NCBI GenBank assembly: GCA_964554805.1
Contig: CAZKPX010000004.1
Coordinates: 72,439-136,438, forward strand
Direction: 5' to 3'
From: an uncultured Candidatus Saccharibacteria bacterium
GTDB lineage: Bacteria > Patescibacteriota > CAZHWT01
DNA: 64,000 bases
Shown here one piece after another: positions 39,838 through 40,239 of the stretch. The number at the start of each line of letters is the position of its first letter. Position 1 is the first letter of the stretch. The notes below the pieces were generated by a model, which was not told the origin of the DNA, did not search any database, and saw only the letters and a list, made by a program, of their open reading frames with translations. The position numbers and the translations under genes are program-made.

Positions 39838-40239
39838 AAAAGGCAAAGGGTAAAGGGCAAAGGGCAAAAGTTAAAGGCAAAAGTTATAAAATATTAACCA
39901 CCGGCATTCGTCATTGCGATCTGCTTACCGCCAAAAGCCATTGTTTTTGTATGTCATTTTTTCACATCAAATAAACACTACTTACTACTCTTAATGGCTG
40001 GGGGTAGGGTTGAATTTGTTTAGGGCCTCTCCCCCGTCAAGCTAGGAGACCAGTATTTGAGGTGAAAGAAATGAATACAGGGTTTATTAAAATGCAGAAG
40101 ACAAGAGACAAGAGACAGAAGACAAGAGACACGGGACGCGGCGAGGCTTGTCAGTAATCTTTGATTTTTGACTTTAATTTTTGCCCTTTGCCCTTTGCCT
40201 TTTGCCTTTTGCCCTTTGCCCTTTGCCCTTTGCCTTTCC
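39838..40239 (+). repeat. MITE-like composite element, full copy f, occupying the ftsE/prfB divergent intergenic region (hairpin core at about 39931-40100).
   Basis: The left arm aaaaggcaaagggtaaagggcaaagggcaaaagttaaaggcaaaagtt, the core, a GACAAGA tract (acaagagacaagagacagaagacaagagacacgggacgcg), and a right arm with (CCCTTTG/CCTTTTG)x8. Confidence 0.7.

What the first reader, a model, noticed from the sequence alone, without database searches (positions are those of the whole stretch)
39838..40239. Family of non-coding composite repeats (MITE-like) with heptamer-built terminal inverted arms and a conserved hairpin core; six copies in 64 kb.
Copies lie at about 329-884, 26051-26156 (solo arm), 28995-29395, 31691-31938 (coreless short form), 32421-32745 and 39838-40239.

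The full form is modular. A left arm of GGCAAAGGG / GCAAAAG heptamers ends in AATTAAAGTTAAAAATCAAAG. Next come a CGTCATTGCGAT module and a core in which about 28-bp stem arms (tgtatgtcattttttcacatcaaataaaca and ccagtatttgaggtgaaagaaatgaataca) enclose a 60-70-nt variable loop. After AAATGCAGAAG come a tract of GACAAGA / GGCAGGA heptamers, GACGCGGGACGCG, and an inverted right arm CTTTGATTTTTGACTTTAATTTTTGCCCTTTGCC...

There is no ORF and no transposase anywhere in the window. The core is always on the plus strand although nearly all genes are on the minus strand. This architecture of long TIRs made of 7-mer microsatellites, plus a structured core, does not correspond to any element class I can name.
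Basis: seen in the sequence. Interest (0 to 1): 0.85.

Follow-up and report, generated by a model that had tools for sequence, protein, structure and literature searches.

The report
Mosaic palindromic repeats in CPR bacterium
The six loci are real copies of a non-coding, hairpin-forming repeat family that fills the gaps between genes in an uncultivated Patescibacteria genome. It is a new, lineage-restricted variant of the known MITE/REPIN/BIME type of selfish intergenic DNA, not a new class of element.

Summary
Six intergenic loci share 55-81-nt inverted arms made of GGCAAAR heptamer arrays plus a 22-nt unique motif. That motif occurs 7 times in the window against 0.02 expected by chance. Four loci also carry a 165-nt core, always on the + strand, and a fifth (R) holds a decayed half core.

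The core is a 27-bp bulged hairpin. Its stems are 95-100% conserved and four pairs show compensatory double changes. Its spacer is poorly conserved but has a fixed length of 80-81 nt.

Whole elements fold as giant nested hairpins (z -6 to -7). The "CGTCATTGCGA module" is a separate REP-like palindrome that relatives also carry.

The host is an uncultivated Patescibacteria (CPR) bacterium. The closest syntenic relatives have short spacers at the orthologous sites. A more distant relative carries an analogous family built from different heptamers.

I found no transposase in the window, no Rfam match, no consistent target-site duplication, and no copy in any public collection searched.

Best reading: lineage-specific, non-autonomous mobile or duplicative mosaic repeats of MITE/REPIN/BIME type, with the hairpin as the selected part. 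This is a new variant of a known kind and of moderate interest.

The parts
39823..40245 (+). Copy D, the whole element. It lies between the divergent ftsE (start 39756, - strand) and prfB (start 40314, + strand) genes.
   Evidence: Sequence; BLAST against the other copies. Folds as one giant hairpin: DNA -81.9 kcal/mol, z -7.3; RNA of the - strand z -6.9. The relatives' ftsE-prfB spacers are 228 nt and about 148 nt, against 557 nt here.
39832..39900 (+). D left arm: GGCAAAG/GGGTAAA heptamer array (39837-39883) plus a degenerate copy of the unique arm motif. It abuts the -35 box (TTGACC on the - strand, 39826-39831) of ftsE.
   Evidence: TRF period 7; inverted-repeat pairs I4, I18 and I22. The -35/-10 reading comes from the sequence and from its conservation in L005.
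39909..39932 (+). D half of a REP-like palindrome (CGTCATTGCGATCTG...).
   Evidence: Motif scan. Full forms (CGTCATTGCGAGG...GCGGCAATCT...AGATTGCCAC...CCTCGCAATGACG) occur in S, in A, and without any core in the relatives L006 and L007.
39926..40092 (+). D core. The main stem pairs 39945-39973 with 40054-40082 (27 pairs, one bulged G on each side). The inner small hairpin pairs TCTCC 40028-40032 with GGAGA 40045-40049. The spacer is 80 nt.
   Evidence: Alignments and RNAalifold. Pair counts: 99.2% of cells paired, 4 pairs with changes on both sides, at most 5 of 500 shuffles as good. nhmmer E 1e-51.
40093..40158 (+). D tail: AAATGCAG, a GACAAGA heptamer array (40099-40131), then a GC-rich GGGACGCGGCGAGG and TTGTCAGTAATC.
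   Evidence: TRF; module comparison shows this tail is shared with C and R only.
40159..40245 (-). D right arm: the unique 22-nt motif (40159-40180, exact on the - strand) plus 8 TTTGCCC/TTTTGCC heptamers (40180-40237). The prfB promoter-like site starts 16 nt further on (40255-40283).
   Evidence: promoter scan.
294..919 (+). Copy A: arms 294-381 and 838-919, several nested REP-like palindromes at 418-640, and the core at 648-812. It lies between a - strand gene starting at 199 and a + strand gene starting at 1032.
   Evidence: (I1: 81-nt arms, 73% complementary).
25985..26157 (+). Copy R, truncated: a decayed right half of the core (25988-26017), GACAGGA/GACGCGG heptamers, and the right arm 26089-26157. 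The Mur-ligase ORF (26104-27411, - strand) ends inside the arm.
   Evidence: 90.7% identical to the right part of D; weak, E=1.3; ORF tail.
28990..29391 (+). Copy B: left arm 28990-29063, REP-like remnant about 29070-29112, core 29145-29312, (GCAGAAG)n tail, right arm 29334-29391. It lies between DUF5667 and galE, both on the - strand.
   Evidence: The junction with galE is reproduced in Logan contig L024.
31685..31940 (.). Copy S, without a core: two arms around one full REP-like palindrome. Its right half equals the left part of A in inverted orientation (79% over 141 nt).
   Evidence: Folds as one hairpin, z -6.1.
32353..32753 (+). Copy C: degenerate left arm (about 32353-32385), GCGGCAATCT remnant (32423), core 32466-32632 with the compensated box CTTGCC/AGCAAG, GACAAGA/GGCAGGA tail, right arm 32691-32753. 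The arm supplies the last 11 codons and the stop codon of cmk.
   Evidence: The relatives' cmk-tsaB spacer is 38 nt (L005) or 48 nt (L007), against 432 nt here.

Best explanation
The loci are copies of a lineage-restricted, non-coding, nested-palindrome repeat family. It is selfish or near-neutral intergenic DNA in an uncultivated Patescibacteria (CPR) genome. It behaves like a non-autonomous mobile or duplicative element of the MITE/REPIN/BIME type.

A basic unit (form S) consists of two inverted arms around a REP-like palindrome. Each arm is a slippage-prone GGCAAAR heptamer array plus a 22-nt unique motif. A second unit, the 165-nt core, is a REPIN-like hairpin: two conserved inverted 27-33-nt ends around an 80-81-nt poorly conserved spacer. 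The core sits at the same internal position in copies A, B, C and D, with a remnant in R. The composite as a whole therefore spread, and its modules later exchanged between copies.

Shown:
- The copies are real and non-coding.
- They are confined to spacers, running from the stop codon of one gene to just upstream of the -35 box of the next.
- They are missing from the orthologous spacers of the nearest relatives.
- The hairpin is the constrained part.

Inferred:
- Spread is catalysed in trans by an enzyme encoded outside the window.
- That enzyme recognises the folded hairpin or arms, probably as single-stranded DNA. This would also explain the uniform polarity.
- When the element is read through by transcription, the long duplexes act incidentally as RNase III, terminator or stabiliser structures, as described for Correia and ERIC elements.
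For: 1. Repetition is far above chance and the arm orientation is strict.

2. There is no conserved reading frame. Frames are broken or shifted between copies. No Pfam transposase was found in 40 ORFs.

3. Relatives have empty or short orthologous spacers:
- ftsE-prfB: 228 nt and about 148 nt, against 557 nt in the window.
- cmk-tsaB: 38 nt and 48 nt, against 432 nt.
- DUF5667-galE: 66 nt in L023, against 430 nt.
The closest relative shows none of these elements over 16 kb.

4. The family includes truncated, decayed and nested copies (R, C, A). cmk and the Mur-ligase gene end in the arm at the same arm-borne TAA.

5. Conservation is uneven. The stems are 95-100% identical and the spacer 35-60%. 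In the stems 99.2% of cells pair, and 4 pairs changed on both sides. This is the pattern described for REPINs (PMC3116915).

6. Whole elements are giant hairpins, z -6 to -7.

7. Module trees disagree. Spacers group as (A,D) and (B,C), whereas tails group as (A,B) and (C,D,R). This indicates exchange between copies.

8. A relative at 74% RF2 identity has an analogous family built from other heptamers (GGACTGT/CCAAAGT), with 4 copies in 21 kb. This fits fast-evolving selfish families within one clade.

9. Polarity is uniform: 5 of 5 cores in the window, and 4 of 4 copies in the relative.
Against: - No consistent target-site duplication. The 7-nt direct repeats flanking A and B, and flanking the core in B, are within chance. 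The ends are microsatellites and are not sharply defined.
- No transposase, HUH/RAYT enzyme or recombinase is in the 64-kb window, and the rest of the genome could not be read.
- The copies differ by 11-23% yet keep perfect stems. This needs either selection on master copies, gene conversion, or selection at each locus, which would mean a host function.
- The promoter-proximal arm always lies a few nucleotides upstream of a -35 box. The relative's family does the same. This could reflect a function rather than merely tolerated insertion sites.
- Absence in relatives at 74-85% protein identity shows gain or loss over long times. It does not show recent mobility.
Confidence: 0.5

Rival explanations
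1. Host-useful intercistronic module. The element is kept because its transcript or DNA structure insulates neighbouring transcription units. The arm duplex and the 27-bp core hairpin would terminate or process read-through RNA (RNase III), or protect the 3' end of the upstream mRNA. The promoter-side heptamer array would set up the next promoter.
For: - The position is always stop codon - element - -35 box, with one polarity relative to the downstream gene.
- The stems stay perfect although the spacers have diverged.
- A smaller palindrome with heptamer arms sits between the Sua5-family gene (yrdC/tsaC type) and the pyrG promoter.
- Arrays such as (CTTGACG)3 overlap -35 boxes and are conserved in a relative.
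- The relative's family also ends in a heptamer array next to the downstream gene's start.
- RNase III cleavage of MITE hairpins is documented for Correia elements (PMC10969869).
Against: - Copies A and D lie between divergent genes, where no terminator or processing site is needed.
- The nearest relatives manage with 38-228-nt spacers at the same sites.
- The core hairpin lacks a G+C-rich base and a clean U tract on either strand. The terminator scan found nothing conserved.
- Wobble evidence for the transcribed strand is contradictory.
Confidence: 0.2
2. Spread without a transposase. Heptamer arrays arise by replication slippage next to promoters. The interior modules are then copied between arrays by homologous recombination or gene conversion, using the arrays as homology. 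The family would be a recombination product and not a transposon.
For: - Heptamer arrays are a general property of this genome (18 arrays against 0.05 in shuffles) and occur inside genes and upstream of promoters without any element.
- Array lengths differ between the two arms of one copy.
- Modules reassort between copies.
- There are no target-site duplications and no transposase.
Against: - The two arms are inverted, so a target would need pre-existing inverted arrays.
- The 22-nt unique arm motif and the core are not microsatellites, yet they are found at six unrelated sites.
- Relatives' empty sites show no GGCAAAG arrays.
Confidence: 0.15
3. The core is a family of small structured RNA genes that hitch-hike in the repeats. 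It would have a conserved scaffold (long stem, CCAAAAGCC, GCUAGGAGACC) and a variable 50-nt region that acts as a specificity or targeting segment.
For: - The scaffold is conserved while the internal segment is hypervariable and of fixed length.
- The stem shows compensatory changes.
- A conserved small hairpin pairs UCUCC with GGAGA.
- The strand is uniform.
Against: - No conserved promoter or terminator around the core (inspection).
- No Rfam match.
- The variable segments match nothing else in the window or in 23 loci.
- No associated protein gene is nearby.
- No solo core occurs outside the arms.
- The core fold alone is not significantly more stable than shuffles (z -1.6 on +, -0.7 on -).
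- Only four sequences are available.
Confidence: 0.08
4. Assembly or binning artefact: chimeric joins through a repeat that belongs to another organism.
For: The window comes from a metagenome-assembled genome. Short-read contigs break inside the elements.
Against: - Independent Logan contigs join single-copy genes to element sequence at the same bases (L003 with D, L024 with B and R).
- Gene order across the elements matches relatives.
- cmk and the Mur-ligase gene read into the arms in frame.
Confidence: 0.02

Closest known systems
REPINs (REP doublets forming hairpins, mobilised by RAYT transposases; PMC3116915)
   Same: The core has two highly conserved inverted ends and a less conserved spacer of fixed length. 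It forms a long hairpin in single-stranded DNA or RNA, is extragenic, and decays when truncated (copy R).
   Different: The core ends are not themselves short palindromes and carry no GTAG or CGTC tag. No RAYT gene is in the window. The size (165 nt, spacer 80 nt) is at the upper end of the range. The core is always embedded in a larger palindrome.
Bacterial MITEs, e.g. Correia/CREE of Neisseria and ERIC (review PMC10969869)
   Same: The elements are small and non-coding with terminal inverted repeats. They are intergenic, often just upstream of promoters or at 3' ends of genes, and can supply C-terminal codons. Their transcripts form duplexes that RNase III can cut.
   Different: The arms are 55-81 nt and made largely of heptamer microsatellites of variable length. 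No target-site duplication and no parent IS were found.
BrickBuilt MITE of Porphyromonas gingivalis (PMC4596501)
   Same: It is a species-restricted intergenic MITE-like element that contains a tandem-repeat array between inverted-repeat ends.
   Different: In BrickBuilt the 23-nt minisatellite forms the body and the inverted ends are small. Here the 7-nt arrays form the inverted arms themselves, and the body is a hairpin plus REP-like units.
BIMEs of enterobacteria and BOX/RUP/SPRITE clusters of pneumococcus (PMC3184786, PMC10969869; BIME structure partly from my own knowledge)
   Same: These are mosaics of a few conserved modules in variable number and combination. The elements nest in one another, and the transposition enzyme is unknown.
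   Different: There is no sequence relationship, the host phylum differs, and here the heptamer arrays serve as arms.
Intergenic heptamer arrays: cyanobacterial STRR (from my own knowledge) and TAACTGA repeats of Beggiatoaceae, Cyanobacteria and Bacteroidetes (PMC4679880)
   Same: Tandem 7-nt units are strongly over-represented, mostly intergenic and close to gene starts, and differ in sequence between lineages.
   Different: Those arrays are direct repeats close to start codons. They are not paired inverted arrays that enclose other modules.
CGTC-tagged REPs (PMC3733652)
   Same: The inner CGTCATTGCGAGG...CCTCGCAATGACG module begins with CGTC followed by an AT-starting stem, and no dedicated transposase is known for CGTC REPs.
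   Different: The module here is a 60-90-nt compound palindrome with a second inner stem (GCGGCAATCT/AGATTGCCAC). It is not a 20-40-nt unit with a 4-5-nt loop. Patescibacteria are not among the phyla listed in that paper.

Membership tests
MITE | Small (under about 600 bp) with no coding capacity | tested here: met
   Sizes are 256-626 nt. Six-frame translations are broken or shifted between copies.
MITE | Terminal inverted repeats | tested here: met
   Arms are 45-81 nt and 73-94% complementary. The 22-nt motif is on + at left ends and on - at right ends.
MITE | Target-site duplication of fixed length flanking each copy | tested here: not met
   A brute-force search of the flanks found AGCTGGC (A), GAAGGGG (B), AGATTG (S) and nothing of 6 nt or more for D. 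Lengths are inconsistent and within chance expectation.
MITE | A cognate autonomous IS or transposase with the same ends | not testable with these tools
   None among the 40 Pfam-scanned ORFs of the window. The rest of the source genome could not be retrieved. The arm motif has only chance matches in the metagenome and viral collections.
MITE | Presence/absence at orthologous sites | tested here: inconclusive
   Sites C and D, and partly B, are short in relatives at 74-85% protein identity. No sister strain close enough to show precise empty sites was available.
REPIN / REP | Two inverted conserved ends, a less conserved spacer of fixed length, and a hairpin | tested here: met
   This holds for the core: spacer 80-81 nt in all 4 copies, stems 95-100% against spacer 35-60% identity, 99.2% of cells paired.
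REPIN / REP | Each end contains a short REP palindrome with a GTAG (or CGTC) tag | tested here: not met
   The core ends TGTATGTCATTTTTTCNNNNCAAATA are not self-complementary and carry no such tag.
REPIN / REP | An associated RAYT (IS200/IS605-like Y1 transposase) gene | not testable with these tools
   None in the window.
Any Rfam RNA family | Score at or above the family's gathering threshold | tested here: not met
   No hits over the whole window. With the E-value threshold, D gives only far sub-threshold plant miRNA-precursor matches caused by the arm duplex.
BIME/BOX-type mosaic repeats (an architectural class, not a homology family) | A few conserved modules combined in variable number and order, intergenic, structured | tested here: met
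   The modules (arm, REP-like unit, core, two kinds of tail) combine differently in A, B, C, D, R and S and reassort between copies.
Integron attC site | R''/L''-L'/R' boxes with a GTTRRRY core site next to gene cassettes | not tested
   By inspection only. The stems start TGTATG/CATACA, there is no GTTRRRY, and the neighbours are housekeeping genes in conserved synteny. No formal attC model was run.

The most novel reading that the evidence does not exclude
Palindromic intergenic elements whose arms are heptamer microsatellites may be a distinct, clade-wide class in this Patescibacteria lineage. Two genomes carry unrelated sequences with the same design, always with one polarity next to a promoter. 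The class would have its own unknown mechanism. For example, a strand-specific hairpin-recognising enzyme might generate the 7-nt arrays through its cutting or repair, or the arrays (TTGMCN-like, resembling -35 boxes) and the covarying core hairpin might form a transcription-insulating or RNA-guided device.
Probability: 0.12. Interest if true: 0.7.

Novelty: new variant of a known kind. Interest (0 to 1): 0.42.

Why it matters
CPR/Patescibacteria genomes are usually described as small and streamlined. Here about 2.3 kb of a 64-kb stretch, which is a large share of its intergenic DNA, consists of nested palindromic repeats, and these even supply the stop codons of two genes.

If the family is mobile, an unidentified enzyme in this lineage recognises long hairpins. 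That would be worth looking for in the complete genome. The two-genome comparison also suggests that heptamer microsatellites and palindromic elements co-evolve, which bears on the unexplained origin of intergenic heptamer arrays in cyanobacteria and Beggiatoaceae.

Practically, these repeats break short-read assemblies of this organism at every copy.

Tried and rejected
- **Exact-pattern scans.** The core 18/19-mer gave 2 chance hits in unrelated MAGs among GTDB species representatives, 2 chance coding hits in IMG/VR and none in JGI metagenomes. The outer-stem gapped pattern gave none in IMG/VR. The arm 22-mer gave 10 metagenome hits and 1 viral hit, all AT-rich or coding chance matches without heptamer arms.
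- **BLAST of copy D** against the plasmid and phage collections found nothing.
- **Six-frame core peptides** searched against 5.8 billion proteins gave no hit. Spurious ORFs from other copies therefore could not be harvested.
- **A cyanobacterial origin**, suggested by the heptamers and CGTCATTGCGA-type repeats, is rejected. RF2 homologues place the host in Patescibacteria.
- **A coding micro-ORF** (MNTGF..., or IVFVCHFF...) is rejected. Frames, starts and stops are not conserved.
- **Element-driven inversion of tsaB and DUF5667** is rejected as a property of the window. A third genome (L007/L025) has the window's orientation, so the inversion is specific to the L005 lineage.
- **Choosing the transcribed strand from G.U pairs** is inconclusive. 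On + there are 3 U.G pairs at the stem base and 1 in the small hairpin. Two C.A mismatches on + would be G.U pairs on -.
- **Spacer-like matches** of the variable segments: none.
- **Literature search** for the REP-like sequence strings turned up only unrelated primers. Elhai et al. 2008 on small dispersed repeats could not be read.
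Full report
**Observation.** Repeat finding and sensitive BLAST of each copy against the window recover exactly these places and no others. 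My limits are A 294-919, R 25985-26157, B 28990-29391, S 31685-31940, C 32353-32753 and D 39823-40245. The 22-nt unique arm motif AAATTAAAGTYAAAAATCAAAG occurs 7 times with at most 3 mismatches. It is always on + at a left end and on - at a right end, against 0.02 expected. The core 20-mer TTTTTGTATGTCATTTTTTC occurs 4 times exactly, all on +, against 0.01 expected. Heptamer arrays of at least three units number 18 in the window against 0.05 in shuffles (TRF). Independent Logan contigs of the same strain (L003, L024) reproduce the junctions between single-copy genes and D-left, B-left and R-right, and then break inside the repeat. The copies are therefore not an artefact of one assembly.

**Anatomy.** A full copy is a long imperfect palindrome. 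D folds as one giant hairpin as DNA (-81.9 kcal/mol, z -7.3) and as minus-strand RNA (z -6.9). S does the same (z -6.1). A copy has four kinds of part.

- The outer arms are arrays of GGCAAAG/GGCAAAA/GGTCAAA heptamers of variable length (3 to 9 units), followed by the 22-nt motif.
- Inside lie one or more REP-like compound palindromes of the form CGTCATTGCGAGG...GCGGCAATCT...AGATTGCCAC...CCTCGCAATGACG. It is an independent unit, because relatives carry it without any core (L006 95-178; L007 2650-2735, 9195-9330 and 12615-12750).
- The 165-nt core follows.
- The tail is either a GACAAGA/GGCAGGA array running into GACGCGGGAC (C, D, R) or a short (GCAGAAG)n (A, B).

R also keeps a decayed right half of the core, although the match is weak. 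C keeps a degenerate left arm. The right half of S equals the left part of A in inverted orientation (79% over 141 nt). A is therefore an S-like unit with further modules inside it.

**The core.** Four copies align over about 165 nt. A 27-pair stem, with one bulged G on each side, encloses 80-81 nt in every copy. Conservation is very uneven. The stems and three short motifs (CCAAAAGCC, CAAATAAACA, GCTAGGAGACC) are 95-100% identical, whereas the 5' part of the spacer is only 35-60% identical. Copy C carries CTTGCC/AGCAAG where the others have CACMTC/GAGGTG, which gives four pairs changed on both sides. Overall 99.2% of cells pair, at most 5 of 500 column shuffles do as well, and slid registers pair at 42-59%. 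A small inner hairpin (UCUCC with GGAGA) is also kept. With only four sequences this is good evidence that pairing is maintained, but it does not say whether the DNA or the RNA folds. Wobble pairs point both ways. The core alone is not significantly more stable than shuffles (z -1.6 and -0.7). No reading frame is conserved.

**Host and setting.** The flanking genes are ftsEX, an M23 peptidase gene, tsaE, a Sua5-family gene (yrdC/tsaC type), pyrG, cmk, tsaB, galE, prfB, secA and a polysaccharide-synthesis cluster. RF2 has its best named relatives in Levybacteria, Daviesbacteria and the "Patescibacteria group" at about 55-59% identity, and unnamed relatives at 66-85%. The host is therefore an uncultivated CPR/Patescibacteria bacterium and not a cyanobacterium, as the repeats at first suggested. 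The exact proteins are on a 137.8-kb NCBI contig that I could not retrieve.

Every copy is intergenic. The left arm lies a few nucleotides upstream of the -35 box of a minus-strand gene. These boxes are TTGACC for ftsE, TTGACG for galE and TTGACA for the 100-aa gene, read from the sequence. The ftsE box is conserved in L005. The right arm either faces a plus-strand promoter (A, and D at 40255-40283) or overlaps the 3' end of the upstream gene. cmk and the Mur-ligase gene both end ...KAKGKN at the same arm-borne TAA. None of the 40 ORFs scanned with Pfam is a transposase or recombinase.

**Comparison with relatives.** Three syntenic relatives were recovered.

| Site | Window | Closest relative (L005/L023, RF2 85%, GalE 81%) | L006 (RF2 78%) | L007/L025 (GCA_964597145.1, RF2 74%) |
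|---|---|---|---|---|
| ftsE-prfB spacer | 557 nt | 228 nt | about 148 nt | different gene order |
| cmk-tsaB spacer | 432 nt | 38 nt | not covered | 48 nt |
| DUF5667-galE spacer | 430 nt | 66 nt | not covered | 310 nt, with its own REP-like module |

- In the closest relative, 16 kb of synteny contain none of these elements.
- In L006, a purine-rich array plus a REP-like palindrome sits at the contig end.
- L007/L025 has its own composite family, with four copies in 21 kb. These have inverted arms of GGACTGT/CCAAAGT units, an AT-rich module, further heptamer arrays and a REP-like half. All have the same polarity and end next to the start region of the downstream gene. They fold through their arms at z -3.7.

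Elements of this design are thus gained, lost and replaced within the clade. The 165-nt core has so far been seen only in the window's genome (nhmmer on 23 loci).

**Searches elsewhere.** All of the following were negative.

- Rfam gave nothing at gathering thresholds, and only junk miRNA-precursor matches to the arm duplex at the E-value threshold.
- The core 18/19-mer is absent from GTDB species representatives, IMG/VR and JGI metagenomes except for chance hits.
- The arm motif has only chance matches.
- BLAST of D against the plasmid and phage collections found nothing.
- Six-frame core peptides hit nothing among 5.8 billion proteins.
- The variable spacers match nothing else available.

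**Interpretation.** The best-supported reading (about 0.5) is a lineage-specific family of non-autonomous mobile or duplicative mosaic repeats. A heptamer-armed palindrome of the S type acquired a REPIN-like hairpin, and the composite spread into permissive spacers. The copies then decayed (R, C), became nested (A) and exchanged modules. On the last point, spacers group as (A,D) and (B,C) whereas tails group as (A,B) and (C,D,R).

The pattern of perfect stems, compensatory changes and a diverged spacer of fixed length is what Bertels and Rainey described for REPINs, where it is attributed to selection for mobility (PMC3116915). I infer, but cannot show, three further steps:
- an enzyme encoded outside the window recognises the folded structure;
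- recognition is strand-specific, since 5 of 5 cores here and 4 of 4 copies in the relative share one polarity, although with co-oriented genes this cannot be separated from transcription;
- read-through transcripts of the arms and core are cut or stabilised as in Correia and ERIC elements (PMC10969869).

Several things count against a plain MITE:
- there is no consistent target-site duplication;
- the ends are fuzzy because they are microsatellites;
- no transposase is in the window;
- the copies are 11-23% diverged.

The rivals are as follows:
- a host-useful intercistronic insulator or processing module (0.2), favoured by the fixed stop-element-promoter arrangement and weakened by copies A and D between divergent genes and by the short spacers of relatives;
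- spread by slippage plus recombination without a transposase (0.15);
- a structured small-RNA gene family with a variable segment (0.08);
- an assembly artefact (0.02).

**Relation to known elements.** The family works like MITEs and REPINs and is built like BIME, BOX or BrickBuilt mosaics. I would not file it as a member of any of them. The MITE hallmark of a target duplication was tested and not met. The REP hallmark of a tagged short palindrome at each end was not met for the core. The cognate enzymes could not be tested. The heptamer arrays recall cyanobacterial STRR and the TAACTGA repeats (PMC4679880), but here they form paired inverted arms.

**Verdict.** This is a new variant of a known kind in an unusual host, not a new class. 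The most novel reading is that heptamer-armed palindromes are a clade-wide class with their own mechanism or function. I give it about 0.12.

Noticed in passing
window 35322-35410: A second, smaller palindrome has arms that are heptamer arrays of another family: GGCGACA/AGCGACA at 35330-35350 facing CTCGTCG/CACGTCG at 35386-35406, around a 35-nt AT-rich centre. It lies between the Sua5-family gene and the pyrG promoter region. The design matches the large elements but the sequence differs.
   Followed up: partly
window 25857-25877; L023 11689-11709: A (CTTGACG)3 array, read on the gene's strand, carries repeated -35-like TTGACG hexamers just upstream of the NAD-dependent epimerase/dehydratase-family gene (window 24799-25830). 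The array is present at the orthologous place in the closest relative. Similar GGCGACG arrays lie at 25961-25981 and 63687-63707.
   Followed up: partly
window 20551-20578 and 20998-21025: GAGCGAC heptamer arrays lie inside two protein-coding ORFs (19002-20600 and 20604-22046), where they encode 7-residue periodic stretches. Heptamer slippage in this genome is therefore not confined to intergenic DNA.
   Followed up: no
L025 3021-3141, 7755-8057, 11033-11164, 17590-17896 (GCA_964597145.1): A relative has its own composite intergenic family. It has inverted arms of GGACTGT (one arm with an 8-nt period, GGACTGCT) and CCAAAGT/CCACAGT units, an AT-rich 77-nt module, AACTATA and GAAATAC arrays, and a REP-like half CCGTCATTCTGGAACGAAGC. 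All copies have one polarity next to the downstream gene.
   Followed up: partly
window 32711-32753 and 26104-26157: cmk and the Mur-ligase ORF both run into the right arm of an element and stop at the same arm-borne TAA. This gives both proteins K/G/Q-rich tails ending in KAKGKN. The relative's Cmk ends ...YLSQKSSA instead.
   Followed up: partly
window 26104-27411: The Mur-ligase-domain gene next to copy R has no counterpart at this position in L023 (NUDIX is followed directly by the epimerase gene) or in L025. It is a gene gained or lost beside a truncated element.
   Followed up: no
L005 63-737 and 2448-2783, against window 29390-30073 and 31943-32278: DUF5667 and tsaB are each inverted in the closest relative compared with the window and with L025. 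In the window these two genes are bordered by elements B, S and C. The third genome shows that the inversions belong to the L005 lineage.
   Followed up: partly
window 43528-44037: A perfect 255-bp tandem duplication (100% identity) lies inside the 2022-aa ORF (41438-47506). That ORF also has a long Pro/Thr/Glu-rich repetitive region (42430-43140).
   Followed up: no
window 276-292, 433-446, 918-929: A 14-bp palindrome CCGCCAGCTGGCGG, or near copies of it, occurs inside copy A and just outside both of its ends. It is a further small palindromic repeat clustered with the family.
   Followed up: no
window 9161-9766: A BrnT/BrnA-like toxin-antitoxin pair lies inside the glycosyltransferase cluster. 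The matches are weak: BrnT is below the Pfam cut-off and BrnA above it.
   Followed up: no
window 40314-41396: prfB (RF2) is a single uninterrupted 360-aa ORF, with no sign of the programmed +1 frameshift site common in other bacteria. Its close homologues have the same length.
   Followed up: no
window 48199-48285 and 48588-48674: Two adjacent FKBP-type isomerase genes share a 87-nt stretch at 90% identity. They are tandem paralogues, and L006 has them too.
   Followed up: no
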